Below are positions 2,444 through 29,500 of a DNA stretch of 64,000 nt, in pieces. Location of the stretch: IMG/VR virus record IMGVR_UViG_3300047462_000120; one strand, given 5' to 3'. Under the pieces are notes generated by a model, which was not told the DNA's origin, searched no databases, and saw only the letters and a program-made list of their open reading frames with translations. Within the stretch, counting starts at the first letter, position 1; every line of letters starts with the position of its first letter. The position numbers were made by a program, and so were the translations under genes. The stretch comes from a virus.

Positions 2444-3178
2444 TTATGGCAGTTTGTAATATTTTCTTTTCTCACTGGCAGTTACGTTTGCCTCATCAAC
2501 GAGTTGCGAAACCGAATAAAAGTTATGCTGCAATTTGTCCCACATAAAATCGGGCGAGTTTACAAACTGGTTCGGTGATACAACCAAGAACTTTCCGCAG
2601 GCAGTGACTTTTTCAGGTGGGTCATCGGGTTCCCTAAACTGGTTCGCGCAAATGTCATGCTGCAAGACCATTTTCTCGTCTCTTGTGGAAACAGGAAAAA
2701 GAAATACGCTTGGAACCTTCTTTGTAGCTCGATCAAACGGAAATTTATTTACCTTTCCGTTTTCATCGATATATCCTGCCCACCAAGAGCCATCGTCGTT
2801 TTGTTGCTGACCAATGGACTCTTTCAGTATTTTCCGCTCACCAGTTTTAGACACAGATACCATATAAACGGCCCGATGACTCTCACTGGATTCTCCGACT
2901 AAATGTCCCGAACGGTCTTTCAACTTTACGATTCCATTTTCCGGTACACGCACAGCATTGCCCAGAGGGTCGCGCTGCACATCAACACCGTCCGGTTGTC
3001 CAAATAGAAAGAATACGGGGCCAAAATATTCATCCGGGATCAAAAATACGAGCGGTGGTGGCATTGTTATTTCCTTGTATTTTATGTAGCCGCCATAGCA
3101 AAGCGCCAGCAGCGGCAATAGCAGCAAAAGGTAGCGCCGATTCATTCTCCAACTTCTTTTCGTCATTTTCACTACCAC
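2444..3178 (-). CDS. Putative T6SS immunity protein, N-terminal TM anchor, DUF6843-like
   Basis: Directly downstream of the effector and duplicated. It has a basic N-terminus plus hydrophobic helix (RRYLLLLLPLLALCYGGY) and an FLIPDEYFGPVFFLFGQPDG motif reminiscent of DUF6843. Confidence 0.65.
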   Translation of the reverse strand: MVVKMTKRSWRMNRRYLLLLLPLLALCYGGYIKYKEITMPPPLVFLIPDEYFGPVFFLFGQPDGVDVQRDPLGNAVRVPENGIVKLKDRSGHLVGESSESHRAVYMVSVSKTGERKILKESIGQQQNDDGSWWAGYIDENGKVNKFPFDRATKKVPSVFLFPVSTRDEKMVLQHDICANQFREPDDPPEKVTACGKFLVVSPNQFVNSPDFMWDKLQHNFYSVSQLVDEANVTASEKRKYYKLP

Positions 3179-3243
3179 TTATCTTTAGCTAAATCATTCA
3201 GGTTTGCACTTCATATCGCATTTAGGCAGAATGAACGCGCAAG

Positions 3244-4470
3244 CTATTCCACGCGGTTCGCGTGGGGTTTCCACCTGTCTTTCGACACGTCATAATAGTT
3301 TGGAGTTCGGCCTGTGTTCGGGTCACGATGAAGGTGAAAGTCATTCCACGCATCGCGCGTAGTCATTTCCGATGGCCCATTTGCCCAACTCTGATGCAGT
3401 CTGAATCGTATCTGATCAATAGGAGTATAAGCAGACACGTACAGCGGCTTTGCAGTACTACTTCCATGTTTTGAAATATTTTCTTCCTTACCACAATCCC
3501 AAACGAACAAATCGGCTACAGTCGAGGGGAGAATTCCAATAGGGTCTAAATCAAGGCTATCCGGCTTCCTACCTGTCCTACAAAATTCTTGATGGCCGTT
3601 GGTAGGATAATCGTCTCGGTGTTCTGGCGGCCCGCCCAACACATGAGCAAACACCCATAATGTATCGCCAAAATTACCTTCCGCATCAATTTTGACGCGG
3701 ATCGCATTACCCCACATAAAACGATGATTTTCACCCGCCAAGTGTGTCGCAGGAGTACCAATGCGAACATGCGTACCCAGGAACAATTTATTTCCTGCCG
3801 CGTCCTTAATGAACCCTTCGCAATTTGGGAAGCCGTCACCATTCACCAGCGTAACAATGTCCATGTAACCGCTGACTCGTTCGACCCGAATGAACAACTC
3901 ACTAAATACATCCAAGGTCGGCACAAACGTCCAGTCGGTATGTTCCTGAACCCAACTGGATAGTGCAAACGCATGATTTTCCCCGCCATACCATGCGTCA
4001 ATCTGAACTTCCTTTTGACCGCCGTGCGGTGTGCGAACCATATCAGCGGCAAGTTTCCCTCTTGGTTTGTGCTTCTCGTTTGTGTAAGGCTCCTCGTGGC
4101 CGAAAGCACCCCAAGCTCTAGGCCCCGACTTTGAGGGATTGGATTCTTGCTTCAACTCCGCAACGGGATCATGTGCTAGGTCACCGCCCCTCGCAATATC
4201 AGTGTCGAACATATATCGCTGCCAGATACGCGATGTGACTGCATCCGCTGCTTTGTCATCACCGAAGTAACTTGGCCCCATCGAAAATCCACGATTGTCT
4301 CCATGAAAGCGGAACCCCCAGCCTTCAAACTGCGAATTCGGATGGAACGAGCGTACATTCACCTCATACTTCGCGAGTTTGACATATTTGATTGGCTTGA
4401 CGACGCCATCTGTTTGCTTTGCCGGAGTCGATTTAGTGACATGCAATGGTTTTGCGGTTGTGTCAGCCAT
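3244..4470 (-). CDS. Putative T6SS cargo effector (non-lipase; DUF3238-like motifs)
   Basis: Immediately downstream of vgrG with a strong RBS (AAGGAG) and followed by an immunity-like gene. Motifs RSFHP..FHGDNRGFS..TSRI and PTLDVF...GDGFPNCE. No GxSxG lipase motif seen. Confidence 0.65.
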   Translation of the reverse strand: MADTTAKPLHVTKSTPAKQTDGVVKPIKYVKLAKYEVNVRSFHPNSQFEGWGFRFHGDNRGFSMGPSYFGDDKAADAVTSRIWQRYMFDTDIARGGDLAHDPVAELKQESNPSKSGPRAWGAFGHEEPYTNEKHKPRGKLAADMVRTPHGGQKEVQIDAWYGGENHAFALSSWVQEHTDWTFVPTLDVFSELFIRVERVSGYMDIVTLVNGDGFPNCEGFIKDAAGNKLFLGTHVRIGTPATHLAGENHRFMWGNAIRVKIDAEGNFGDTLWVFAHVLGGPPEHRDDYPTNGHQEFCRTGRKPDSLDLDPIGILPSTVADLFVWDCGKEENISKHGSSTAKPLYVSAYTPIDQIRFRLHQSWANGPSEMTTRDAWNDFHLHRDPNTGRTPNYYDVSKDRWKPHANRVE

Positions 4471-13430: not shown

Positions 13431-16400
13431 TTATACCTCAGAAAGTTCGCGATGGACTGCCGCTTTCAACGCCTTCGGCGCGGTCTTTTGCGTGCGATCC
13501 AATGCTGACATCCGCATTTCCTGCACGCGCTTTACCACGGCAGGCATGCTGATGATGATCGGCGTGTCCGGGTTCTTTGCATTCCAGTCGTCGCGCATCT
13601 TGCGCGCATCGTTGACCATTTCCTTGTCGCCGGATGCCAAGCCTTGCGCCCATTGTTCCTGAATCTCTTTCGATGCCATCTTGGTCTGCCCCACGACATC
13701 GCGGGCCTGTTCGTCGGCATCCTTGACGCGATCGGTACTGTTGGGCTGGAAGCCGATCATCTTCATTACGGATTCGGTCGGCATAACGGCATTGACCTTG
13801 TAGCCGCGATCATCGCGATAGATTCCGGTATTGAGCATATCGGCCCCCTTCTGGATGTTGCGCAACGATGCTGGTAACAAGTCGCTCGCTGCGTCCAATA
13901 CCTTGCCATCGGCCAGCTTGTTGCCTGAATCGAAGGCGCGCTTGGCAAGGTCTGCAACCGGGCCAAAGACATCAGCGACATCGCTTGCATGCGAATCCTT
14001 CTTGACCAGAAAGCCAGTGCCGGGAACCAGTTTGCCAAGGCCAAAACGACCGGCCACGTCAATCGGCACACCTGGCAGTCCAGACAGGCCATGCAAGGCA
14101 ACATCAGAGCCATCCTGCCCCAAGGCATTGATCAGGAATTCCTGCTTTTCGCGCTTGCTGCTGAAGTTATAACCCATGCGCTGCAAGATGCCGTCGATGA
14201 CATCTTCCGCATCCTGTTCAAACGGCAAACCGTTCACACCACCGAGCAACATCAGGACAGCGGCCATCGTCATCGCACCTTTTCGTCCAGCAGTGCGTTC
14301 CGGCGATCCCGGTTCACCCGCCGTCGCCATACGTGACAGCAATTCCAAGTTGCTGATGCTAAATTGCTTGAAGGTCATCGCCAAGCCGCCGATAGTTGTG
14401 CGTCCCCATGTTGGCTTATTACCGGCGTTATAGACGCCTTGTGTGGCGGATACGGCATCGGCGGCGAACTTTTCGGGATTCGCAATACCTTCTTCAATCG
14501 CAGTCTTATATGCGGCAATGAAGGTGACCCGGCGATTGGTCAACTCGGCCATTGAGAACAACTTACCCCAACCGAGCGATATTTTCGACATGGTATTGCC
14601 GATTGCGGCCTTGGTATCACCGAATTTCGTGCCGTCGCCAGATTGCAATACGCCCTTGCCGTTGGCCTGCGCTTTCAACTGGTGAATTTCCTGCGGCGAC
14701 ACAATGCCCTCATCAGTCGCCCACTTCATCGCGGCATCCAGCTTGGCGTCGCCGGTTGTTTTCTTGCCAGCCAAACGCACCGCATCTAGCATACGCGCTG
14801 CCGATTTTCCTACCCCGCCGTATTGACTCAAATAGGGGAAGGCCATCGTGAAAGGCTGCGTCAAGTTGACCATTGCCGACGCGACCGAACCGCCCAGGTA
14901 TTGCGCGAACATCAAACCGCCCAAGGCAGAACCACCACCCTGCGGATTCTTGATATGTTCGGCCAGATTGACGGCAGCATCCTTTAATTCGCCATGATGC
15001 TTTGGAATCGCCTCGATCGCGTCGTTCAATTCGCCCATGTGGGCATTCATGGCGGTCAACTTGGAATTGGAATACAGGAAGCCAGCCAGCACGCGCCCTG
15101 AATCCTCGCTGAAGCCAGCGATACCCTTACGCTGGATCAGGCGTTTCATGGCGCTGCGATTGTTCTTCGCCAGCTTCAAATACGCTTGATAAGCTTCGTT
15201 GCCCGCCGCATCGTTGTTGTCCAAGCCAAGCATCGCGCCAAACAATTCAACGGTTTCCGGCGATACGCCTTGGAACAACTTATACGACTCTTTCGACATC
15301 GTACCGTGCGTGATCGTTGCATGCGGGTAGTTGGCACGCATTTGCCGTGCCATCTTTGCGGCTTCGGCCTTGTCTTCAAACATGCCAAAGTATTTTTCTT
15401 CACCACCTTGCGACACATAGACCGTGTAATCGCCGTAGCGGGACAGTGGCGCATAACCGCGATCGATCAAGTTTTGCGCTTTGTCGGATTTGGCAATCAT
15501 TTGGCTTGCCGTCTCCAAGTGCGAGTTTGCGCGATCTGGATTGCTCTTTGCCAGTTCCATGAAATGATCACGCAGCATTTCGCCCGCCTTATCAACGCTT
15601 CCGGTAGCCATTGTCGCATCGAGCATGCCCTCAGCGTCTTGACCGCCAAATTTCACCATGTCGCTGATTGCAAGATTCCTGATGCTGCGGTCTGTCGCCG
15701 CGCGGAACTCTTGATACATGCCGATTTGTTTGTCGTTCAGGCCGAAAATCGAGCGCAGTTCTTCCGGCTTCCAGACGATACCGCCTTGCAGCTCCGATTG
15801 CTCGAAACGGTCATTAATCGTGCTGTCATATTCGTCCTTTGGCAGCGCGAGCCAGCGCTTGTTTTGATCGTCGTCAATTGTCGCCTTGCGCAGCAGAACT
15901 TGGGCTTTCTGCGCGACTGACAAGGTTTTTGCAGCTTCTTCCATGTCAGCCAGCTTCAACGGCTTACCATCTATGCCACGCGCCCAGGTCAACGTCCCTT
16001 CAAAGATGGGCGCGGCGATCGCCTTGGTATCGGCTGGAGACAATGGCGACTTCCTCCAGATATCGGACATTTGCTCCAGCTTCGGAATGATCGTCGGTGC
16101 GAGGTCTGCCGCTTCATTGGCGTATGTCGAAACGTCACCAATGAAATTCTGCACGCGATCGTAGACCGCCTTGAACAACGGGCTGCGTGCGGCGAGGTTG
16201 TATTGCGTGCCGATGGTCTTATGCCACCAGTTCAGCTTACCGGCATCGTTGAATAGGTCACCAATGACATAATCAGCAGGCAAGCGTACCTCTTTGATGC
16301 TATTCCCGGCTTGGGTCAGAGCGTCGCCTAACGACCGTTTGTAGAGGTTACGGTCGGACGAAAAGTCGCCCTCAGACGGCGACGTGCGCTGACCGAGCGC

Positions 16401-19400
16401 ATCGCGACTCTGCTTCAGGAGGTAATAGAGGTCGGCATCCGTGCCATACGACAGATTCGGGAAGCCGTGCGCACGCAACCAGCTTCGCAGCATGCCGAGG
16501 AATGACTGAATCTTTGTGCGCAGTGTTGGCCTGTCTTCCGCGATATGCGCTAGTAGCTCGCTCATCATCGTGCTGATGTGCTGCTCGCTAGTGTCGCCGT
16601 GTTCGTTTGCCGATGCCGCGTGGTATTCGCTCAAGTCGATGCCGTGACGATTGGCGATATCGTTCAAGCCCCTCATCCCGCCAATAGCATGAAACAGGTC
16701 ATTCATACGTTGATCAAGGTACGGGCCAAACAACTTGTTAAATCCCTGATGGCCGTACAATTCATGAAGCAGCGTCTGTTCAAACTGCTTCGCGGTCGTG
16801 TGTTGATCCCGCACCACATAAACGGTGTTATCAGCGTGTACACCATCTATGGCATTTTCGGCATTGTCACGGATCGCCGCGTCCGTGATGAACTTCGGCA
16901 AATCGTGGAAGCTGTCTACAACGCGGATACTTGTACCAGCGAGTCCATTTTTAAAGCTGCTGACCACACCGCCAACAATTTTATCTGCGTCAGACCTACT
17001 GATCGTTGCACCTTCGCGATACGTCCCGGCGTTTGCGTCCGCGCTTTGACGCGAATACAATACCGGCGCGTCGCCGCTGGCATTGACTCCCTCATTGAGC
17101 GCAGCAGCTTGTTGCGCATTCGTTGCTTCTGGCAATGGAACATCATTTTGCAGCGGGTCGCCTTCTTTGGCTTGCGCTGCCTTATCCTGAGACAGTTCTT
17201 GGATTACTTGCTCCAGGCGCGCATTCTTGGCGTCGAGTTCGTCTTGCTTCGCAAATACGCCGCCCCTGCGTGCTTCCAAGTCTGGCAGGCTCGCCTTAGC
17301 CGTCTTCAGTTGCTTCTCCGCATCAGCTACATTATTCTTTCGCAGAGTGATATCGAGGTCGTTGTCTAGCGTCGATATCGCCATGCGCATGCCGCTCGTC
17401 GAATATGCTTCCAACGGATTTGTCTGTCCAGACGCCAAGGTAGAGCCATCCGGTCGCAACACTGCAAGCGTCGTGATATTGTAATCCGTCCAGTTCTTGC
17501 TATAGGTTGCTTCCAGAGGCAATCCCAAATAGCTGCCAAGCTGTTCAGTAATTTCCTTGTCTTTCATCATGCCGACCGTTTTTTTCGCGGCTTGCTCCGC
17601 AATATAACGCGCAGCATCCGTCCTGCCGATGTACTTGTCGCCGTCCATCGTCATTTCAAAATCGGCGGCATCTCCGAAGGCATGCGACACCTCTTCCATG
17701 TAGCTCGTTTGCGATGCCTTACGCTTACCATTGATGGCAATCGAGAACTTGGCATCCTCATCGCCCGCCTGTTGCTCCTTTTGCGCGGCATACGCGGCCT
17801 TTTTCGCCTCCTCAGCGGTGTAATAGGTCTTTCCTTCCACTTCAATCTTGCGCTCGGCAACTTTGTCTGACTGGTCAGTGAAAGCACGTTGCAGCATGTC
17901 GAGGTCTGCCCGCTGCTTCGCAATGATCGACGGCATGTTTTTGATATCACGCTGCGCGTCTTCGATCTGCGTGATAATTCCCCATTCCTTACGTGCGTGC
18001 TGACGCTTCAGCAGTTCAAGGCCGTCAATTTCCGACATCAACTTAACACGCTCAAGCAGTAACGGATCACCGGATGCAAGTGCGGCCAGTTCCGCCATAC
18101 TGACAGACGAATCATCCTCAAAATCCATTGAGAATTGCCCGTTGTAGTGACGAATACCATTGATCATCTTTAACTTGGACGCATTCAATGACCACATTTT
18201 CGCGTCAATCGTCCGCTCGGTCGCATAGGCTTTGATTGCCGCCTCGAATTTATCCATACCGTACTTCTCCAGCAAGCTGTTACCCTGGCGCTCGATCCGG
18301 CCTTCCCGTTGCTCAATGTCAGACGGCTTCCACGTCACATCAACGTGGTGCAGTCCAACCAGCCGTTGCTGAACATTTGTACCAGCACCCATACGCGGCG
18401 TCGAGCCGATCAACACGCGCGTAGTACCGTCATTAACGGAATCGAACAGCGCTTGCTTTTGCGCGTCGTTATTGGCCTCTTGAACAAAGCGGATTTCATT
18501 TGCCGGAATACCGCGCTTAATCAAGTTATCTTTGATTTGCTGGTAAGCGTTCCATCCACCATTCTGCGCGAGGCGCATCTCCTCCATCGCGTTCGGATCG
18601 TACTGTTCCAGGCTTTCACCGACACGGCGCAACGCTTCGTCGTCATTATTTGCCAGCGCTTTGCTCTGTTGCTGGAGCAACGCATCGTAGTTTTTGAGGG
18701 CGACAGCGTCTTCTCTCGCTTTCGGAACGGAGCGATCTAAGAAAACCAACTGCGTGCCGCGATCGGAATCCCATTGTTTATAGAGATTGTGAATTTCATC
18801 GGCAACGACATCCAGCTTTCCACCTTTTTCATCGCTTGGATTGCCTGGGTCTACGGCGCGCACGTCCAGCGATACCTTGCGTGCGCGATCCATCAGCTTC
18901 AGGCGCGCGATATTGCGCTCATACGGGTCATCGATCTTGGGAAGGTCATCGAATCCTGCAATGATGTTGTGCAGGAAAGCACTCTGTGCTGATGTGGGCT
19001 GGACAACGACAGATTCGCGGCCCCCGCCAGCTATCGTCGGAATAGGAAACTGCTCACCATTATTGTCTTCGGCATATGCCTTTTTGATGTCCTCGTTACT
19101 GACAGAATCCGTAAATCCGTTATACAAATCCATGAGCGAACGCATGTTCGACCATGTTCGGCCTAAGCGGTTGACTTCCTTCAGGCGTCCGGTTTCGTTA
19201 GGCTCCCATCCCGCATCCGTGGAGACAAATTGTGAGCGCCATGCGTCGAAGTGATCTAAACCAAGTTCGCTCAACTTATCGGCGGCGAGGTAGCGCATCA
19301 TGGTGTACATTTCCACCGCACTATTCGAGATCGGCGTGCCAGTAGCAAATGTGATTGTTCCTGTAGGCGACTCGCGCAGCACACGAATTTTGTTGTACAG

Positions 19401-22400
19401 GTCGAATGCCTTCTGCGAACCGGCTTTATTACCCATTCCCTTCACGCCGGTCAGCCGCGAGCTATAGAACAGGTTTTTGTACTCGTGCGCCTCGTCCACC
19501 GACAGGTCATCGATACCCATCTGCTCAAACGTCAGCAGGTTATCCTTTGTGCCGTCGCCCTTGAGCATCTCCATGCGCGCTGTGATCTTGTCGCGCAGGC
19601 GCTCCGCCTCCTTTACACCAAACGGCTTGCGGAAACCCGTATCGTTTCCACTTTCCTTTGCAGCGTCCTCTGCGTCTTGAATCGCCGCTTCAGCGGCTTT
19701 CAATTCGACTTCGAGGTAGCGTTGTTCGGTTTCCTTGGCAATCGGAATAAAGTAGAACGAACTATGTGGGACGATCACAATATCGTGATCGCCGGTTGCT
19801 ATTTTTGCGAATAATTTACGACGCTTTGAGCGTTCAAAGTCGGCCTTACCAGCAGCAAGCACCTTTGCCCCCGGATAAAGCCGATACACATCCGATGTAA
19901 ATTGCCCAACCATGTGATTTGGAACAACGATCATCGGTTTTTTTGATAGCGCCATCCGCCGACGTTCCATCGCACGCGCGATCATGGTGAACGTCTTGCC
20001 TGCGCCAACCGCATGATCTAGCATCATGAAACGTTCGGAAATTCCACGCCAGATCGCATTTTTTTGGTGTCGGCGCATTGCAATGACCGCATCAGGCACT
20101 TTGCCGGGCAAGATCAAATGCGAGCCATCGTGCTGGCGATTGACGACTGTATTGAATTTCTGGTTGAACATCGACACCAGCGCGTTGCGGCGATCGGAAT
20201 CCTTGAATACCCAATCGCTGAATTCGCTACTGATTGCCTTTGCCTTCAAAACCGCAAGCGCGGTTTCCTCCTGATTGATATGCGGCGTGCCTTTCTTGTC
20301 GTAATCAAGCACTTTCGTAGCACGGCTATTGAGCAAGTCATTGATCAACGCAGTCGATGACATGCGCGTCGTTCCCCATTCATCCTCGTTTGCACGGATA
20401 TGGGCGCTGTTTTCGATAGAATAGCTATTGGTCAGCGGGGAAAAACGCACGCGCGAATCGCCACCTGAAATGTGATCAATGAAGTCTTTGTATGTCTTTG
20501 CCGGTATCCATGCCGCGCCCAGGATCGGCGTCACGTTCTCCGCGCCCCATGATTCAGGCTGTACTTCCGTCAAAGCCTTGACGTTCTGTGGCAATCCGGC
20601 ATTTCGCGCAGCTTCCAGCTTCCGCACCACCTGGCCGGAAAGGTATTCGTTACGGCTGACGATATCGCCAGTTTCCGGGTCAGTGAAAACCAACGGCTTT
20701 TCGGCATTGAGCATTTCACTTGAAACGGATTCCTTCGGCAGTCCAAGCAATGACGCGATGCGATCCATATCCACGCGGCCAGATTCCGCCAGCGAAATGG
20801 AAAGCGCATCAGCTTGAGAATCTGCGTTTGTCGGCGGCTCATACTTCCTGACTACGCGCTCAGAAAGAATCGGGGCGGGCTTTGCTGACGCATCGCGCGC
20901 CTTTTCCCCAATTTTTTCCGCTTTCGCCTTGTTGACAGCAGGCCGGTATCCATGCTCAAGCGCCTGAACCAGTGCGCCATCCGGCATGTTTTGCACGAGC
21001 GCAGAGTTGGACGGTTCGCTGATAAAGCTATTACCAGCCACAAACTTTTTGTAGGCCGAATTCAATGCCCGGCGGTTTGTTTCGATGGTCTTTGCAGGAG
21101 CGTCTTCGGCTTCCAGCGTCAATTGCTGTTTGAGCAAATCGCGAATGCCGACGAGTTCCTTCAGACGGCTAAACCGCGTTTGCCCCAACAGTGCGCCCGC
21201 TGGTATATCGGCTTCATTCGTAAATACCTTGCGCTCGTACAAATTACGATTGGTCGCAACGTCGCCTTTCATGACCTTGACGTTCTTGCCCTGCGCATCA
21301 AGTACTGGCTCTATCCGATACCATTGACCCTGCGCGTTCATATACAGGTCTGGTGCCCACGGCGATGCCGCCGATAAGGTGCGCTTGGTCAGTTCGTAAT
21401 CACCTTCAGGTGTTTCGCGCTCGATAACCTGCTGCAAGCTGCCATCGTTGTGGAAAGCGATCGAACCTTGCTCATTTCCTTCCAGAGCGATATGCAGGGA
21501 ATCGCTCATTGCTTTGTGCCGCGCAATCGACGCATCAATGGCACTCTGCTGCTGCGCCATCACATTTTCGGGCAGACTCGCAACAGCAGCCTTGAGCATG
21601 CCTGCAAGGTCACCGCCATTGTCCAGCCTTACCGTAACGTCTTTCCCGTGCTGCATGGAACCAGAACGCTCCAGCGTCCCCATAATCATGTGCGGGTTCT
21701 GCTCGAAGTAGGAATTGACTTGCATCGGTTCACCGCCAAGGGGATCGGGAACCTTTGTTACGTTCACCCATGCCGGAACCTGCGCGGCCAATGCTTGCCG
21801 CTGCTTTTCTGCATCCTTATCGCGTTCCGGCTTGCTGCGTGCGGCGGCAAAGGCGGCTTCCATGTTGCCTTGTTCGGCCTCGTTCAATCGTTGCAAAAAC
21901 AGGATATCGGTGACAACTTGGGTGCGCGCATTTTCCCGGAACGCGGTATCCGGCAGACGAATTGCGGCCAGCAACTTGGCTTTCGACGCCAACATTTTGC
22001 GCGCAGTGGCGTCTGCCACATCGAGCAGATAGCGAGACACGACCTCGACTTGCAAGCCGCCCGGTTTGACGGCATCGAGCGATGCCAAGGTGAATTGATT
22101 GTGAATCGAAAGGCGGTTCAATTCCGGCTTGAATTGAAATCGCAACGATTGATTACCGAATGGTGGATTACCAATGGACAGGTCAAATGCGCCATCGGTC
22201 AACGGCACATTCTGGAAGCCACTATTCAATACAGTTTCGTGCGGGTAGAGCGCTTGCGCGATACGTGATGTCAAGCTGTCGTATTCAACACCGACAAACT
22301 TGGTGTTGTGCGCCAAGTCTTCAGGAATCAAACCGAGGAAGTTGCCTGTCCCCATCGACGACTCAAGCGTCAAACCACCCTTGAAACCGAGTTGACGCGC

Positions 22401-23420
22401 GGCGTCCCACATGGCGTTGACAACGGTTTGCGACGTGTAGTGCGAATCCAGTGTCGAACGCGACGCAAGCGCAAATTCTTTAGGAGAGAGCAGCGCGGCC
22501 AGTTCGGGGCCGCGCTTCTTCCAGGCGTCCTTGTATTCCCCTGTCAGGGGGTCAGGGAAAGCATTTGCCAAACCGCCCCAACCGACATAGCGCGCAAGAA
22601 TGGCTTGCTCGGTGGGTGTTGCGCGACGATTTTCCGACTCGATCGCTTTGAGGGTGCGGATTGCAAGCAGGTTGTCGTTGAACTTCTCGACTTCGCCGCC
22701 TTTACCGAGTCGGACATCATCGGTAATGCGGAAATTCTGCGCCGGGATCGATGGCGCATTGCTCGGCGTTGGCCGGGGTGTTAGGTCGGCTCGATCTCGT
22801 TGTCCGGGTCGTGCGGATCGAACATCATGTCCTGATACCGCCTCTCCAATTCGGCCCGCTCGATCTCTTCCCAATCGTCGGGGTCTGGTTCCTCCGGTCG
22901 CAGGAGAATGAAGTGCTTCAGCGCCACTTCCTCCGCCGCGTGCGCCGGATATCCCTGTTGCATCAAGTCCGATATCTCGTCGAACGCCTTCCTTGCTGCC
23001 GTCTGAGTCGCTTCGTTGAACTCCCCGGCCCGTTGCAGTTCGGCTGTCTTCTCCGGCAGCCACTGCTCCCAGTGGTCGCGCGCCATCTTCGCGAGTGTTG
23101 TTCTGTCCATCGTTACCGCCTTCACCGTTTATTTTTCCGGCCGCAAGTTTATCCGAATTGCTTCCGTTTACAAAATTAGTAACTTCCGGGGCAAATTCGC
23201 CCCAATCTACGGTGTGTCCATCATTCGCAGCGATAGCATTGATCTGCGCAACGATTCCTGTGCGTTCTTGGTGCGCCTCGTTGAGCATCAAATGCGCCGC
23301 TGTCATGTACGCTTCGGCTTTGGTGACGCCATCCGTATCCATCACTTCGGCAACTCGTTCTTTGAGCGCGGCCATTTCGGACTTTGGGTAAGATGCCAAG
23401 CAAAAGGAAGGAGATGCCAT
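13431..23420 (-). CDS. Giant DarB-like polyvalent protein (about 3329 aa): N6-type DNA methyltransferase, SNF2/DEAD helicase, metallopeptidase-like, PLxRFG region
   Basis: LARYVGWGG, ESSMGTGNF, IGNPPFG (about 22150-22175); DHAVGAGKT (about 20000), DEAHEYKN (about 19490), TGTPISN, WKPSDIEQREGRIERQGN; HELYGHQG (about 16760); APLSRYG (about 15440). ATG 23420 is preferred over 23519 because the extension spans a terminator/promoter. Confidence 0.92.
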   Translation of the reverse strand: MASPSFCLASYPKSEMAALKERVAEVMDTDGVTKAEAYMTAAHLMLNEAHQERTGIVAQINAIAANDGHTVDWGEFAPEVTNFVNGSNSDKLAAGKINGEGGNDGQNNTREDGARPLGAVAAGEDSRTATGRGVQRSDSDGSKEGVRRDIGLDATGISGARGGGSGAEALHSPATGGTRPRRLGRDRAGRIGEAVSGHDVRSARPGQRDRADLTPRPTPSNAPSIPAQNFRITDDVRLGKGGEVEKFNDNLLAIRTLKAIESENRRATPTEQAILARYVGWGGLANAFPDPLTGEYKDAWKKRGPELAALLSPKEFALASRSTLDSHYTSQTVVNAMWDAARQLGFKGGLTLESSMGTGNFLGLIPEDLAHNTKFVGVEYDSLTSRIAQALYPHETVLNSGFQNVPLTDGAFDLSIGNPPFGNQSLRFQFKPELNRLSIHNQFTLASLDAVKPGGLQVEVVSRYLLDVADATARKMLASKAKLLAAIRLPDTAFRENARTQVVTDILFLQRLNEAEQGNMEAAFAAARSKPERDKDAEKQRQALAAQVPAWVNVTKVPDPLGGEPMQVNSYFEQNPHMIMGTLERSGSMQHGKDVTVRLDNGGDLAGMLKAAVASLPENVMAQQQSAIDASIARHKAMSDSLHIALEGNEQGSIAFHNDGSLQQVIERETPEGDYELTKRTLSAASPWAPDLYMNAQGQWYRIEPVLDAQGKNVKVMKGDVATNRNLYERKVFTNEADIPAGALLGQTRFSRLKELVGIRDLLKQQLTLEAEDAPAKTIETNRRALNSAYKKFVAGNSFISEPSNSALVQNMPDGALVQALEHGYRPAVNKAKAEKIGEKARDASAKPAPILSERVVRKYEPPTNADSQADALSISLAESGRVDMDRIASLLGLPKESVSSEMLNAEKPLVFTDPETGDIVSRNEYLSGQVVRKLEAARNAGLPQNVKALTEVQPESWGAENVTPILGAAWIPAKTYKDFIDHISGGDSRVRFSPLTNSYSIENSAHIRANEDEWGTTRMSSTALINDLLNSRATKVLDYDKKGTPHINQEETALAVLKAKAISSEFSDWVFKDSDRRNALVSMFNQKFNTVVNRQHDGSHLILPGKVPDAVIAMRRHQKNAIWRGISERFMMLDHAVGAGKTFTMIARAMERRRMALSKKPMIVVPNHMVGQFTSDVYRLYPGAKVLAAGKADFERSKRRKLFAKIATGDHDIVIVPHSSFYFIPIAKETEQRYLEVELKAAEAAIQDAEDAAKESGNDTGFRKPFGVKEAERLRDKITARMEMLKGDGTKDNLLTFEQMGIDDLSVDEAHEYKNLFYSSRLTGVKGMGNKAGSQKAFDLYNKIRVLRESPTGTITFATGTPISNSAVEMYTMMRYLAADKLSELGLDHFDAWRSQFVSTDAGWEPNETGRLKEVNRLGRTWSNMRSLMDLYNGFTDSVSNEDIKKAYAEDNNGEQFPIPTIAGGGRESVVVQPTSAQSAFLHNIIAGFDDLPKIDDPYERNIARLKLMDRARKVSLDVRAVDPGNPSDEKGGKLDVVADEIHNLYKQWDSDRGTQLVFLDRSVPKAREDAVALKNYDALLQQQSKALANNDDEALRRVGESLEQYDPNAMEEMRLAQNGGWNAYQQIKDNLIKRGIPANEIRFVQEANNDAQKQALFDSVNDGTTRVLIGSTPRMGAGTNVQQRLVGLHHVDVTWKPSDIEQREGRIERQGNSLLEKYGMDKFEAAIKAYATERTIDAKMWSLNASKLKMINGIRHYNGQFSMDFEDDSSVSMAELAALASGDPLLLERVKLMSEIDGLELLKRQHARKEWGIITQIEDAQRDIKNMPSIIAKQRADLDMLQRAFTDQSDKVAERKIEVEGKTYYTAEEAKKAAYAAQKEQQAGDEDAKFSIAINGKRKASQTSYMEEVSHAFGDAADFEMTMDGDKYIGRTDAARYIAEQAAKKTVGMMKDKEITEQLGSYLGLPLEATYSKNWTDYNITTLAVLRPDGSTLASGQTNPLEAYSTSGMRMAISTLDNDLDITLRKNNVADAEKQLKTAKASLPDLEARRGGVFAKQDELDAKNARLEQVIQELSQDKAAQAKEGDPLQNDVPLPEATNAQQAAALNEGVNASGDAPVLYSRQSADANAGTYREGATISRSDADKIVGGVVSSFKNGLAGTSIRVVDSFHDLPKFITDAAIRDNAENAIDGVHADNTVYVVRDQHTTAKQFEQTLLHELYGHQGFNKLFGPYLDQRMNDLFHAIGGMRGLNDIANRHGIDLSEYHAASANEHGDTSEQHISTMMSELLAHIAEDRPTLRTKIQSFLGMLRSWLRAHGFPNLSYGTDADLYYLLKQSRDALGQRTSPSEGDFSSDRNLYKRSLGDALTQAGNSIKEVRLPADYVIGDLFNDAGKLNWWHKTIGTQYNLAARSPLFKAVYDRVQNFIGDVSTYANEAADLAPTIIPKLEQMSDIWRKSPLSPADTKAIAAPIFEGTLTWARGIDGKPLKLADMEEAAKTLSVAQKAQVLLRKATIDDDQNKRWLALPKDEYDSTINDRFEQSELQGGIVWKPEELRSIFGLNDKQIGMYQEFRAATDRSIRNLAISDMVKFGGQDAEGMLDATMATGSVDKAGEMLRDHFMELAKSNPDRANSHLETASQMIAKSDKAQNLIDRGYAPLSRYGDYTVYVSQGGEEKYFGMFEDKAEAAKMARQMRANYPHATITHGTMSKESYKLFQGVSPETVELFGAMLGLDNNDAAGNEAYQAYLKLAKNNRSAMKRLIQRKGIAGFSEDSGRVLAGFLYSNSKLTAMNAHMGELNDAIEAIPKHHGELKDAAVNLAEHIKNPQGGGSALGGLMFAQYLGGSVASAMVNLTQPFTMAFPYLSQYGGVGKSAARMLDAVRLAGKKTTGDAKLDAAMKWATDEGIVSPQEIHQLKAQANGKGVLQSGDGTKFGDTKAAIGNTMSKISLGWGKLFSMAELTNRRVTFIAAYKTAIEEGIANPEKFAADAVSATQGVYNAGNKPTWGRTTIGGLAMTFKQFSISNLELLSRMATAGEPGSPERTAGRKGAMTMAAVLMLLGGVNGLPFEQDAEDVIDGILQRMGYNFSSKREKQEFLINALGQDGSDVALHGLSGLPGVPIDVAGRFGLGKLVPGTGFLVKKDSHASDVADVFGPVADLAKRAFDSGNKLADGKVLDAASDLLPASLRNIQKGADMLNTGIYRDDRGYKVNAVMPTESVMKMIGFQPNSTDRVKDADEQARDVVGQTKMASKEIQEQWAQGLASGDKEMVNDARKMRDDWNAKNPDTPIIISMPAVVKRVQEMRMSALDRTQKTAPKALKAAVHRELSEV
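22781..23110 (-). CDS. Nested gene in the +1 frame inside the DarB-like giant (about 109 aa, remote TnpV-like pattern)
   Basis: GAAGGCGG RBS-like sequence before ATG 23110; GC-rich third positions; helical protein-like sequence. The giant frame over the same bases is a G/R/A/D-rich linker. Confidence 0.7.
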   Translation of the reverse strand: MDRTTLAKMARDHWEQWLPEKTAELQRAGEFNEATQTAARKAFDEISDLMQQGYPAHAAEEVALKHFILLRPEEPDPDDWEEIERAELERRYQDMMFDPHDPDNEIEPT

Positions 23421-23456
23421 GTGCGTTACTTTCTTGGAAAAATTGAGACGAAGGCG

Positions 23457-23487
23457 AAAAAAAACCGCGCCAGTTAAATTGGCGCGG
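23457..23487 (-). terminator. Intrinsic terminator between the two giant genes
   Basis: Perfect 8-bp stem CCGCGCCA/TGGCGCGG, 7-nt loop, followed by T8 on the minus strand. Confidence 0.8.
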
Positions 23488-23506
23488 GATTGTAGGGTTT
23501 GTTTCA
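23482..23506 (-). promoter_or_regulatory. Phage promoter-like motif, copy 1 (TGAAACAA-n4-TACAATCCCGCGC)
   Basis: Same motif at 33620-33644 and 58957-58981; each lies just upstream of a minus-strand start and contains a TACAAT -10-like hexamer. Confidence 0.7.
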
Positions 23507-23562
23507 GAATTTCCTGCATCGATTTGCAGGATTTTTTTCACTGCTCTATTTGATGGTCATGC

Positions 23563-26500: not shown

Positions 26501-29500
26501 TTTTCAGGCGCAACGGCGCGCGCTTGCCGTTCTTTCTCTGCTTCTGCGGCGCGCAGCTTGGCAGCTTCGCGTTCTTCCTTCAGACGACGTGCGCGCTCCA
26601 ATCCGGGAGGAACCTTAACCGCCGCGTTGACATCGGAAACGATAGACCCTTCCGGCGCATTTCGCGCAAATGGCTGTTTGGTATTGCCATTCTTGAGCCA
26701 ATCCTTGAACGCGTCCATCGACGTTTCGGCAATGTTATTGCCGCCCGTCCAGTCCTTGTCATAGTTGGACTGGTAAGCGTCGCGCGCCTCCTGCATCGAG
26801 TTGAAACCAAGCATAACCTTATGCTCATCAGGTTTGCCGGTTTCAGGATTGGCCTGATCGACAACGAACACTTTTTTGCTGTCTTCATGCTTGCCGATAA
26901 AGGCGTCGATATGGTCTTTGTCCATACCAACCGTACCCCTGATGTAGCCGTAGTGATGCTGCACCGTGGTTTCCCAAGGCGTACCGTCGCGCGCGACGCC
27001 GGAACGGGTAGAGCCTGCCGGATTTTCGACAGAGATATCCAGACCATTGAAGCGCACATGGCCCTTCGCATAGTTGCCCGCTTCCTTTTGCGCGTCAGTC
27101 GGCTCGGCAAGATCATTGAGCGGCGATGTCGCCGCTTCATGGGCAGCGCGATCGAGCGCGGTTAATGGCGCGCTGTGCGCTTCTTGATCTTCATTTGCAC
27201 CAGAACGGCCAGATCGTGCAAGTCCATCAACCGCTGCGCGCTGAGTGTTTTCGGTTGAAACGTTCTGCGCTTCATTTCTTCCCGCGTGGTCAAGTCCAAT
27301 TTGATCATTTTTTCGTGCAATTCCGGGTTCCAGACTACCGGACGATACATTTCCATTGACATCATGTGCCTTGATAGCTTGTTGGTAATAAGACCTTTGC
27401 CGGTCGTTCAACTTGAAAATCTTGGTTGACCCAGGCTTGTGCAAAATGTTGCCGCTCGGCGTCTTCAGGCGCATTCCCTGTGCGATTGCCGCATCGACGA
27501 CTACTGTGTTCACTTTGCCGGAACGTACTGCCGGTGCAACTACCTTTTCTGGTACGGCGTCGGTGAGTTCATTCGGTGAACTCGCTTCGGGCCTGATCGC
27601 ATCATCAATGTAGTCGTGGTCTTCGTCGGTAAGGCGCGGGTTAATGTAGCCATCGCGCTTGAGCAGAGCAGCATAAGCATCTTTCTTATTCTCTGATGCA
27701 ATGGCGTCATTGCTCAAAACTTGCTCACGCAACGCAGCGCGGTTCGCATCAGCCTGCGCTTTGTATGCCGCTGCTGTGCGGGCATCAGCGGCCTTGATCG
27801 CTTCGTCTTGTTGCTGCGCCGCTGCGCGAGCGGCCTGCTGCTGTTGCAGCGCTTCGATGCGCGATTGCTCGGCCTGTGCAGCAGCATTGCGATCACGGTC
27901 TTCTTTGAGCAAGCCTTCCATTTGCGCATGCTCACCGAATCCTGTCGGAGAAAACATTGCGCGCGTGGTCGCCATATCCTGTAACGCCTGATGCGAGATA
28001 GGTGGCAAGATCGAATCCATCGACCCCGGCTCCGCTGGCGTCTGCAAATGCTGTACGGCATTCAGGATGGATTGCGACAGAAAGCGGGTCGGCGCAGCGG
28101 TGTAGCCACCATCGGCATGCGGAATTATTGTCAGTGGCTTTTCACCTGACATATTCCAACGCGGGATCGCGTCCTGCAAGTATTGCAGGCCAAACGGTTG
28201 CCCCATCGTTGAGAACTTTTGCAGATTTTCCAGACCGGCCGTGTTCTGCACCTTTTCCGGTGCGGTATAGTCAATCGCGTTGGGGTGCGGGTGATTTGCA
28301 GGGTCGGTCGGGTCATAGAGCGACAATGGCTGCTTTACCGTCGATGGGTCAACCGGTTTCGATGTCGGCGTGTAGTCGATGGACTTGCTCAAGTCGGCAT
28401 TTGCATTCGCAATTGCGGCTGTCGCGGTCTGACCGGCGTTTGCTGCGCGCGTGAGTGTGCCAGTCTCAGGCACTAATTGCGGGTCAACCTGACCGGCTGC
28501 ATGCTGTCCGTGCGCAAGCGCACCAGTGCCAACACCCATGACTGCGCCGGAAACGAGACTATCTGCTGCGGCGTTCTCCACGCCCCTCATCAAGTCCGGT
28601 TCCCCATTGGCGACGTTGGTGAAATACTGTTCTTGCGCAGCCTGCGGCATACCCTGCAATACGCCTTGATGCAATGCCTCCTTACCCATTTGCATGAGTT
28701 TGTTGCCCGCAACGCCCACCGAATCCGCTCCGGTCGCCATTTGCAGCTTGGAGTCCCCCATCAGTTTGCCAGTACCGTAGGTAAGCAAGCCAGTTCCTAC
28801 ACCTGCTGCAATAGAAGGAAGTGCATAGTCGTCATAGCTTCGGCCATTTTCTGCCGCAGTCTCCGCGATATTACCGGCACTTATTGATCCCATTGACGCT
28901 GCGCCAACAGCATGCAGCGTGTTGCTTGCATTATTGATCGCCGTTTCCGCCGCACTCTTGACCGGAACGCCACTTGCTGCTGATGCTGCCTTTGCCGCTG
29001 CCGTGTCTGCCTGCAAAGCTGCTTGCGCTGCCGCCTGTTCCGTTCCTCCTGCTGATAGAACGCTCTTTGCTGCGGCCATGCCCTCATCACTGGCAAGCGC
29101 AGCCTTCAAACCAATGCGAGCAGCAGTCAAGCCGCCCAGGGCGTAAGTTTCACCGATATCTGGAAGAGATTCGACAATGCCACCCATCAAAGCGCGCGGA
29201 TTCTGCACGCCAGCAATGATCTTGTTGACAAAGCCGTCTGCGCTTGCAACCTTCTGATCCGACGCCTTTTGGCTATCACTCAAATAATCGCCAAGAAATT
29301 GATTTGTGGCTTCGGGGTCATAACCCACCGAGCGCAACGCATCGCCAGCCATACCGCCAGATACCAAGTCGGCGCGGCCGACCCAACTCTTGCCATAGTC
29401 AACGACGCCTTGTGCCGCTTTAATTCCCATATCGCCTATCGTGCGCATTACACCAGCTTGCGGGGGGGGCGGCGGGGGCGGTTGAACTGAATTAACGTAA

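What the first reader, a model, noticed from the sequence alone, without database searches (positions are those of the whole stretch)
22781..23125. Complete gene nested in the +1 frame inside the DarB-like giant
Seen: a 109-aa ORF (MDRTTLAKMARDHWEQWLPEKTAELQRAGEF...AEEVALKHFILLRPE...) with an RBS-like GAAGGCGG, GC-rich third positions and amphipathic helices. The giant's frame stays open across it as a G/R/A/D-rich linker, and its residues GEGGNDG are the RBS and ATG read out of frame. Inference: the giant grew by reading through a captured small gene while both frames remain in use, i.e. same-strand dual coding. The ARxHW..P...L...G.....AEEV pattern recalls TnpV-like proteins.
Basis: partly seen in the sequence, partly recalled or inferred. 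Interest (0 to 1): 0.78.

Follow-up and report, generated by a model that had tools for sequence, protein, structure and literature searches.

The report
Small gene nested inside giant phage protein
A conserved 109-residue protein gene lies wholly inside the coding sequence of a 3,329-residue DarB-like phage virion protein, in another reading frame. Comparison with about 100 related loci shows selection on both frames, so many annotated phage genomes probably hide an unannotated partner gene.

Summary
On the minus strand, a 109-aa ORF (22781-23110) with its own Shine-Dalgarno-like site lies in the +1 frame inside a giant methyltransferase-helicase ORF. The giant's true start is 23420, not 23519.

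- **The nested frame is the protein-shaped one.** GC by codon position is 0.66/0.37/0.77. dN/dS is 0.11-0.34, against 1.0-2.1 for the same DNA read in the giant frame. The AlphaFold model is confident, and 1,372 homologue clusters are almost all small proteins.
- **The giant frame is still kept open.** It has no stop in any giant-linked locus (25 lineage representatives and 12 isolated phages). Redrawing the window's nested codons from the giant's own usage predicts 7.5 stops. Pooled, T-ending codons before AA/AG/GA codons are 0/840 against 111/1954 elsewhere.
- **Stand-alone homologues are relaxed.** Four of seven stand-alone lineages carry 2-6 stops in that frame.
- **The giant cannot start after the nested gene.** There is almost never a start codon after the nested stop, conserved giant-frame sequence lies upstream, and no slippery site was found.

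The same geometry occurs unannotated in Atu_ph08, SopranoGao/LASTA, VvAW1, Pavtok, POI1126 and Bcep22.

The small protein is distantly TnpV-like and its function is unknown. Translation of both frames is inferred, not shown.

The parts
22781..23110 (-). Nested gene: ATG at 23110, TAA at 22781-22783, 109 aa, acidic (pI 4.4). Four predicted helices plus an acidic tail. It lies in the +1 frame relative to the giant.
   Evidence: ORF and translation. (GC1/2/3 0.66/0.37/0.77). (dN/dS 0.11-0.34). (AlphaFold2 pLDDT 83.5, above 90 for residues 1-70). (homologues). (pI).
23116..23123 (-). Shine-Dalgarno-like GAAGGCGG, 5 nt upstream of the nested ATG. In the giant frame it encodes part of E-G-G-N.
   Evidence: sequence; purine-rich SD-like sites stand at the same place in most related loci and in the isolated phages.
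13431..23420 (-). Giant DarB-like polyvalent virion protein (N6-methyltransferase plus SNF2-type helicase and C-terminal modules), 3,329 aa from the conserved MASPS start. The longest ORF would extend to 23519.
   Evidence: (weak SNF2, ResIII, Helicase_C and Eco57I-methylase hits). (MTase region matches 95 phage records; those annotated are mostly called DarB-like antirestriction). (start and terminator).
22781..23110 (-). Giant-frame read-through linker (giant residues 104-214 counted from 23420). It is 81% G/R/A/D/S/T/E/P and 12% hydrophobic, with no amino-acid-level constraint but no stop codons.
   Evidence: composition. (giant-frame dN/dS 1.0-2.1). (stop avoidance).
23111..23420 (-). N-terminal domain of the giant, upstream of the nested gene and coding in the giant frame.
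   Evidence: GC pattern fits the giant frame. (40-88% identical in 11 related loci). (dN/dS 0.10-0.22).
20970..22769 (-). Start of the conserved methyltransferase module of the giant. The NFRITDD motif begins about 15 codons after the nested stop, and NPPF lies further on.
   Evidence: alignment A4, 21 sequences.
23465..23487 (-). Intrinsic terminator hairpin with a T-run between the upstream 2,006-aa gene and the giant's real start.
   Evidence: sequence. (8-pair stem, 7 G-C pairs, T8 tail).

Best explanation
This is a true same-strand nested gene pair.

The DNA at 22781-23110 primarily encodes a small, folded, acidic helical protein, a distant relative of TnpV, translated from its own Shine-Dalgarno site and ATG. 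The same DNA, read one base earlier, is also translated as a low-complexity, probably disordered linker. That linker joins the giant's N-terminal domain to its methyltransferase-helicase body.

Selection acts on the small protein's amino-acid sequence. On the giant frame it acts only to exclude stop codons, achieved by avoiding T-ending nested codons before AA-, AG- or GA-starting codons.

Both products most likely come from one mRNA: ribosomes starting at 23420 make the giant, and ribosomes starting internally at 23110 make the small protein.

The small gene sits immediately before the methyltransferase module in essentially every relative, so I infer that the small protein is a functional partner of that module, such as a chaperone, packaging factor or regulatory subunit.

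What is shown: ORF geometry, conservation, frame-specific selection and stop avoidance. What is inferred: translation of both frames from one mRNA, and the partner function.
For: 1. **The nested frame is a real gene.**
   - The codon-position GC signature fits the nested frame.
   - dN/dS is 0.11-0.34 in 11 pairwise comparisons, against 1.0-2.1 for the same DNA in the giant frame.
   - ATG and SD-like sites are conserved.
   - The fold prediction is confident.
   - A profile search finds 1,372 clusters at E<=1e-3, and nearly all of the 150 best listed are 73-300 aa proteins.
   - Stand-alone copies occur in other contexts.
2. **The giant frame is kept open by selection.**
   - It has 0 stops across the nested gene in all of about 55 unique giant-linked sequences.
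   - For 20 lineage representatives, synonymous shuffling predicts 19.2 stops; 0 are observed.
   - For the window alone, 7.5 stops are expected from the giant's codon usage, and P(0) is below 0.002.
   - T at the nested third position is 0.06 against 0.21 in the giant. In low-GC phages it is 0.03-0.07 against 0.27-0.33.
   - Pooled, at-risk T-ending codons are 0/840 against 111/1954 elsewhere, Fisher P 2.7e-18.
   - Stand-alone homologues match the neutral expectation: 14 stops observed against 15.9 expected, with four of seven lineages carrying stops.
3. **The giant must be read across the nested gene.**
   - There is almost never an ATG/GTG/TTG between the nested stop and the conserved MTase motif.
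   - Conserved giant-frame coding sequence lies upstream: a roughly 100-aa domain in the window's group, at least 990 aa with homology to the window's 2,006-aa protein in L089-L092, and a conserved N-terminal peptide in the high-GC group.
   - RefSeq annotates single 4,369-4,877-aa CDSs across the site in SopranoGao and Atu_ph08.
4. **No frameshift signal.** No -1 slippery heptamer or homopolymer run occurs in 21 lineage representatives.
5. **No internal promoter.** No internal promoter-like site was found between the giant's start and the nested ATG.
Against: - There is no direct evidence here of translation of either frame; no proteomics or ribosome profiling was available.
- Beyond staying open, the giant-frame linker shows no amino-acid constraint. 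The argument for its translation therefore rests on stop avoidance and on the lack of any alternative start.
- Three stand-alone homologues (L016, L097, L099) also lack stops in that frame. The contrast with giant-linked copies is statistical, not absolute.
- The lineages are related, so pooled P-values overstate independence.
- Two sequences show in-frame fusions of the small-protein segment, to the upstream part in phage PBC5 gp22 and to the downstream part in L038. These could be sequencing errors, or a hint that fused forms are tolerated or made.
Confidence: 0.8

Rival explanations
1. Programmed -1 ribosomal frameshift, or transcriptional slippage, near the end of the small gene. The small ORF would be the true 5' part of the methyltransferase-helicase protein, as with IS orfA-orfB or dnaX, and the open giant frame upstream would be incidental.
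For: The frame offset is constant (giant = nested -1) in about 70 loci. The nested stop always lies 1-15 codons before the conserved MTase motif, and no start codon follows it. One contig (L038) carries an in-frame fusion of the small ORF's first part to the giant frame.
Against: No X XXY YYZ heptamer or homopolymer run occurs in the nested genes of 21 lineage representatives. Frameshifting needs the giant frame open only after the slip site, yet it is stop-free over the whole nested gene with strong at-risk codon avoidance. Conserved giant-frame coding sequence with no stop lies upstream of the nested ATG, at least 990 aa in L089-L092.
Confidence: 0.07
2. Three separate products and no dual coding. 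The upstream domain, the small protein and the MTase-helicase body would be made separately. The body would initiate at a non-canonical codon or by termination-reinitiation after the nested stop, and the giant frame across the small gene would not be productively translated.
For: Metagenome gene callers split the locus this way, for example in L005 a 113-aa gene followed by a giant fragment from a TTG. Giant-frame dN/dS across the overlap is 1 or more.
Against: The upstream giant-frame ORF has no stop in any giant-linked locus, so ribosomes that start there must run through. In the window and most lineages no ATG/GTG/TTG stands near the nested stop. Stop avoidance in the giant frame would be unexplained.
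Confidence: 0.06
3. Chance or artefact. The nested ORF would be a spurious open frame in GC-rich DNA, or the giant frame would be open because of compensating sequencing errors.
For: GC-rich DNA often has long spurious ORFs. The window protein has no Pfam hit.
Against: The nested frame carries the coding signature and the purifying selection and has 1,372 homologue clusters. The geometry recurs in independent assemblies and in isolated phages, including genomes of about 46-50% GC.
Confidence: 0.02

Closest known systems
Phage lambda Rz/Rz1 spanin genes (established knowledge: Rz1 is wholly embedded in the +1 frame of Rz)
   Same: A complete small gene with its own start lies embedded in the +1 frame of a larger same-strand phage gene. 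The two products are functionally linked.
   Different: Here the outer gene is a giant of more than 3,000 residues. The overlapped outer segment is an unconstrained linker kept only stop-free. The inner gene looks like the older one, with widespread stand-alone homologues, and a physical partnership of the two products is not shown.
TnpV (Pfam PF14198) of Tn4451-type elements, and the structurally similar DUF1896 (PF08989)
   Same: It is a small all-helical protein of about 100 aa. Pfam matches are weak (E 0.05-0.16 for two relatives; 5 of 58 relatives, best E 8.6e-6). The predicted fold matches TnpV-tagged Atlas clusters at TM 0.64-0.77 over 74-78 residues, and a DUF1896 cluster.
   Different: The window protein does not reach any Pfam threshold. 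It sits in a phage virion-protein gene, not in a transposon. TnpV itself has no established biochemical function (my knowledge), so the resemblance gives no mechanism.
DarB of phage P1 and the DarB-like giants of Bcep22/PBC5-like phages (Atu_ph08 gp21, Bcep22 gp75)
   Same: The host ORF is of this kind: an N6-methyltransferase plus SNF2 helicase in a giant virion protein. PMC6630229 describes Atu_ph08 gp21 (4,877 aa) as a DarB homologue conserved among PBC5-like phages.
   Different: None of the 12 isolated-phage records examined annotates the nested gene. The P1-like phage D6 darB lacks it, as its giant frame opens only about 320 nt before the MTase match and has no nested ORF. In the window the polyvalent protein is split into a 2,006-aa and a 3,329-aa gene with a terminator between them.
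Overprinted genes of small phages (phiX174 B within A, E within D; established knowledge)
   Same: There is same-strand dual use of DNA, with one frame more constrained than the other and the less constrained frame encoding low-complexity or disordered sequence.
   Different: This is a large dsDNA phage or prophage with no obvious need for genome compression. The larger gene is the one overprinted on the smaller.

Membership tests
Same-strand embedded (nested) overlapping gene pair | The inner ORF, with its own start and stop, lies wholly inside the outer ORF on the same strand in a different frame. | tested here: met
   nested 22781-23110, giant 13431-23420, offset +1.
Same-strand embedded (nested) overlapping gene pair | Both frames are under selection, not one of them open by chance. 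| tested here: met
   Nested frame: dN/dS 0.11-0.34. Giant frame: 0 stops against 7.5 expected in the window, and 0/840 against 111/1954 at-risk T-ending codons pooled. Stand-alone copies are relaxed.
Same-strand embedded (nested) overlapping gene pair | Both protein products are made. | not testable with these tools
   No proteomic or ribosome-profiling data were on hand. Gill et al. 2011 on Bcep22 virion proteins is not held.
TnpV (PF14198) | A match to the Pfam model at the gathering score (27 bits). | tested here: not met
   The window protein has no hit at E<=1. Two of 8 relatives score 12-14 bits. Five of 58 profile hits match at E<=0.01, best 8.6e-6.
TnpV (PF14198) | The same fold. | tested here: inconclusive
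   The Atlas search puts TnpV-tagged clusters among the best matches (TM 0.64-0.77, rmsd 1.1-2.6 over 74-78 residues). These are predicted models of short helical proteins, and the PDB gives nothing significant.
TnpV (PF14198) | Location on a Tn4451-type mobilisable transposon next to a TnpX resolvase. | tested here: not met
   The window is a phage or prophage with terminase, portal/adaptor and internal virion protein genes.
DarB-like polyvalent virion protein (host ORF) | An N6-adenine methyltransferase module followed by an SNF2/DEAD-type helicase in one giant ORF of a phage. | tested here: met
   Weak Pfam hits to Eco57I methylase, ResIII, SNF2-rel_dom and Helicase_C. NPPF motif. tblastn of residues 251-700 matches 95 phage records; those annotated are mostly called DarB-like antirestriction.
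Programmed -1 frameshift gene (orfA-orfB type) | A slippery heptamer or slippage-prone run near the end of the upstream ORF. | tested here: not met
   None in 21 lineage representatives.

The most novel reading that the evidence does not exclude
The hidden small protein is the missing accessory factor of DarB-like giants in Bcep22/PBC5-type phages. It would be a dedicated chaperone or packaging adaptor, a functional stand-in for P1 DarA, which these phages lack according to PMC6630229. Nesting its gene in the giant's own linker would couple its synthesis to the giant's mRNA and set the ratio of the two products. If so, a whole class of anti-restriction virion proteins has an obligatory, so far unannotated, second subunit.
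Probability: 0.15. Interest if true: 0.85.

Novelty: new variant of a known kind. Interest (0 to 1): 0.72.

Why it matters
**Annotation.** Gene callers and curators keep one frame and discard the other. The RefSeq and GenBank phage records examined annotate only the giant. Metagenome pipelines call the small gene and truncate the giant. A conserved protein family (1,372 clusters at 50% identity) is therefore missing from the records of the isolated phages examined, including phages studied for therapy or biocontrol, such as those of Klebsiella, Burkholderia, Ralstonia, Erwinia and Agrobacterium.

**Evolution.** This is a clean, widely replicated natural example of overprinting in the unusual direction: a large protein's linker is laid over an older, folded small-protein gene. 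The cost is visible as a codon-usage distortion in the small gene, namely loss of T-ending codons.

**Function.** The strict position of the small gene just before the methyltransferase module suggests a partner for DarB-like anti-restriction proteins. This can be tested in tractable phage-host pairs.

Tried and rejected
- **Complex prediction**, small protein against the giant's methyltransferase region (alignments A2 and A4): no verdict, score 0.00. This is not evidence either way.
- **The search for related loci in genome contigs**: 54 pattern matches, none confirmed.
- **tblastn against PLSDB plasmids**: no match.
- **Foldseek against the PDB**: nothing at E<=0.001. The best was 2apl (PG0816) at E 1.5.
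- **Pfam on the window protein**: no family.
- **PHROGs**: only phrog_938, labelled 'endolysin'. That is a 2,185-position profile of giant proteins, and its end matches the small protein. An in-frame fusion like that of phage PBC5 gp22 would explain it, so it is not an endolysin function.
- **The genome search 'own'**: no genome is held for this window.
- **Gill et al. 2011** (Bcep22 virion proteins, PMC3187461): not held.
- **Literature searches** for DarB with overlapping gene, PLxRFG, polyvalent proteins with frameshift, TnpV, and embedded gene/overprinting: no description of this nested gene.
- **Reduced synonymous divergence in the overlap**: dS and third-position divergence are lower than in the upstream flank and usually, though not in every pair, lower than in the MTase flank. 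High GC3 in the nested gene confounds this, so I do not use it as evidence.
- **Rejected idea**: that the giant starts at 23519. A terminator lies between 23519 and 23420.
Full report
**What is in the window**

- The longest ORF on the minus strand runs 13431..23519, 3,362 aa.
- A second minus-strand ORF, 22781..23125, lies inside it one base out of register.
- GAAGGCGG lies at 23116-23123, 5 nt upstream of that ATG. Read in the giant frame, the same bases give E-G-G-N-D-G.
- GC by codon position in this stretch is 0.66/0.37/0.77 in the nested frame and 0.78/0.66/0.38 in the giant frame. The flanks fit the giant frame.
- The first ATG of the long ORF (23519) lies upstream of an intrinsic terminator at 23465-23487. 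Relatives begin at the conserved MASPS... ATG. I therefore place the giant's start at 23420, giving 3,329 aa. That is still 310 nt upstream of the nested start.
- The surroundings are a phage or prophage: terminase, portal/adaptor and internal virion protein genes, and a 2,006-aa polyvalent protein gene just upstream.

**The nested frame is a real gene**

- A word-indexed search found six homologues of 65-94% identity, all called as 103-114-aa proteins.
- A profile of 25 family members (A2) found 1,372 clusters at E<=1e-3 and 617 at 1e-10 among 1.84 billion representatives. Nearly all of the 150 best listed are proteins of 73-300 aa with the domain at their start.
- Between the window and its closer relatives, dN/dS in the nested frame is 0.11-0.34. 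The same DNA read in the giant frame gives 1.0-2.1, the flanking N-terminal domain 0.10-0.22 and the flanking MTase region 0.04-0.12.
- AlphaFold2 on A2 gives pLDDT 83.5, above 90 for residues 1-70. The model has four helices and a less certain acidic tail. The protein's pI is 4.4.
- SD-like purine runs precede the start in most lineages.

**The giant frame is kept open by selection**

- Scans with A2 returned 79 metagenome and 7 IMG/VR loci.
- In every locus with both a nested homologue (27-94% identity) and the giant's methyltransferase domain, the giant frame equals the nested frame minus one and is stop-free across the whole nested gene. The one exception is contig L038, which has an in-frame fusion.
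- Synonymous-codon shuffling keeps each gene's own codon usage, so it is conservative. It predicts 19.2 stops over 20 lineage representatives (below 80% identity); none is observed.
- For the window alone, drawing codons from the giant's usage predicts 7.5 stops, and 0 of 500 redraws were stop-free. T at the third position is 0.06 in the nested gene and 0.21 in the giant.
- Pooled over 25 representatives, a T-ending codon precedes an AA-, AG- or GA-starting codon 0 times in 840, against 111 in 1,954 other contexts (Fisher P 2.7e-18). The lineages are related, so this overstates independence.
- Stand-alone homologues with no giant downstream behave neutrally: 14 stops observed against 15.9 expected.
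  - Stops occur in the L001, L014/L017, L019 and L052 lineages.
  - None occur in L016, L097 and L099.

**The giant has to be read across the nested gene**

- The nested stop sits inside giant codons (cTAAc or cTAGc), 1-15 codons before the conserved NFRITDD or RFRPxGQDDLAPSG motif. There is almost never an ATG, GTG or TTG in the giant frame between them, and none in the window.
- Upstream of the nested start, the giant frame encodes conserved sequence with no stop:
  - a roughly 100-aa domain in the window's group;
  - at least 990 aa, partly homologous to the window's 2,006-aa protein, in L089-L092;
  - a conserved N-terminal peptide behind a GTG in the high-GC group.
- No -1 slippery heptamer or homopolymer run occurs in 21 representatives.
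- No promoter-like site lies between the giant's start and the nested start.
- The giant-frame segment is 81% G/R/A/D/S/T/E/P and 12% hydrophobic, against 54% and 29% in the rest of the giant. This fits a disordered linker whose sequence is free as long as it stays open.

**Isolated phages**

- tblastn and a profile scan found the same +1 nested ORF directly before the methyltransferase domain, under a single annotated DarB-like or giant CDS (Itty13 is annotated on the opposite strand), in:
  - Agrobacterium phage Atu_ph08;
  - Klebsiella phage SopranoGao, examined in detail; LASTA and SJM3 give the same tblastn match under their annotated giant CDS;
  - Microcystis phage Mwe-JY07;
  - Pseudomonas phage Itty13;
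  - Vibrio phage VvAW1;
  - Ochrobactrum phage POI1126;
  - Erwinia phage Pavtok;
  - Burkholderia phage Bcep22, weakly.
- ORFs of the same geometry, not recognised by the profile, lie in Ralstonia phage Cimandef, Pseudomonas phage 8P, Pseudoalteromonas phage Y7 and Bacteroides phage BKO1-TP3.
  - The Bcep22/Cimandef type aligns to A2 by hhalign at 63% probability, E 7e-5.
  - Y7 aligns to the Bcep22 type at 78% probability.
- In loci of about 46-50% GC, T3 is 0.03-0.07 in the nested gene against 0.27-0.33 in the giant. There 4.6-8.0 stops are expected and none is seen.
- The P1-like phage D6 and a Streptococcus phage lack the nested gene.
- In phage PBC5 the segment is in frame as the C-terminus of gp22, and the giant frame reopens about 290 nt upstream of it. 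This explains the PHROG hit to a 2,185-position profile. It may be a frameshift error in an old sequence.

**What the small protein is**

- The window protein has no Pfam family.
- TnpV (PF14198) appears weakly in relatives.
- The best Atlas fold matches are small hypothetical proteins, two clusters of them tagged TnpV, plus DUF1896. The PDB gives nothing significant.
- I call it a distant TnpV-like helical protein of unknown biochemical function.
- Its fixed place before the methyltransferase module is the basis for inferring a partner role. The complex prediction returned no verdict.
- PMC6630229 notes that Atu_ph08 and Bcep22 lack a DarA homologue, thought to be needed for DarB packaging in P1. 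That makes a packaging or chaperone role worth testing, but it remains speculation.

**Novelty**

- Nested same-strand genes are known in phages (lambda Rz/Rz1, phiX174; my knowledge).
- I found no description of a nested gene in DarB-like giants in the searchable literature, and the phage records I examined do not annotate it.
- The unusual features are:
  - the direction, with a giant's linker laid over an older small gene;
  - the breadth of conservation;
  - the clear codon-usage footprint.

**Verdict**

Expression of both frames, and the small protein's function, remain to be shown.

Noticed in passing
window 27162-27365 (minus strand): Another note of this scan flagged a second +1-frame ORF (67 aa) inside the upstream 2,006-aa polyvalent gene. 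It shows the same signature. GC1/2/3 is 0.49/0.31/0.68 in its own frame against 0.69/0.49/0.31 in the host frame, T3 is 0.09, and the host frame reads G/A/R/N-rich sequence. No homologue search was done.
   Followed up: partly
window 23465-23487 (minus strand): An intrinsic terminator (8-bp stem, T8 tail) lies between the 2,006-aa gene and the giant's real start at 23420. The first 33 codons of the longest ORF (23519-23421) are probably not coding.
   Followed up: yes
L026 2892-2988, L034, L053, L065, L066, L091 just upstream of the nested ATG: In the high-GC relatives the giant frame upstream of the nested start encodes a conserved peptide...RRRRY.K..EGQLSFEDLL... L062 has QDTLDLFDE and L091 has GQTSLFDWE. 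These resemble beta-clamp-binding motifs (QLSLF type; from memory). Not tested.
   Followed up: no
L095 (Sinorhizobium phage PBC5, NC_003324) 2950-3285; L038 about 480-520: Two sequences carry frameshifts relative to their relatives. These fuse the small-protein segment in frame to the upstream giant part (PBC5 gp22) or to the downstream MTase part (L038). They are either sequencing errors or natural fused variants. P0063 and P0155 look like similar shifted forms.
   Followed up: partly
L001-L004, L009-L010 (nested homologue at L001 6001-6315): A stand-alone homologue (65% identical) lies divergently next to a type I-E-like cas3/cse2 operon, at the edge of a prophage-like block with Lar and HTH_17 genes. 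It has two stops in the frame that the giant would use.
   Followed up: partly
L106 (Pseudomonas phage Itty13, NC_070969): The RefSeq CDSs over the DarB-like region are annotated on the strand opposite to the MTase and nested-gene matches. This suggests a mis-annotation of that record.
   Followed up: no
L097 3501-3821: Another stand-alone family member sits in a phage replication module (DEAD/ResIII helicase, VRR_NUC, DUF5681, AAA_25). The small protein therefore also exists away from giant methyltransferases.
   Followed up: no
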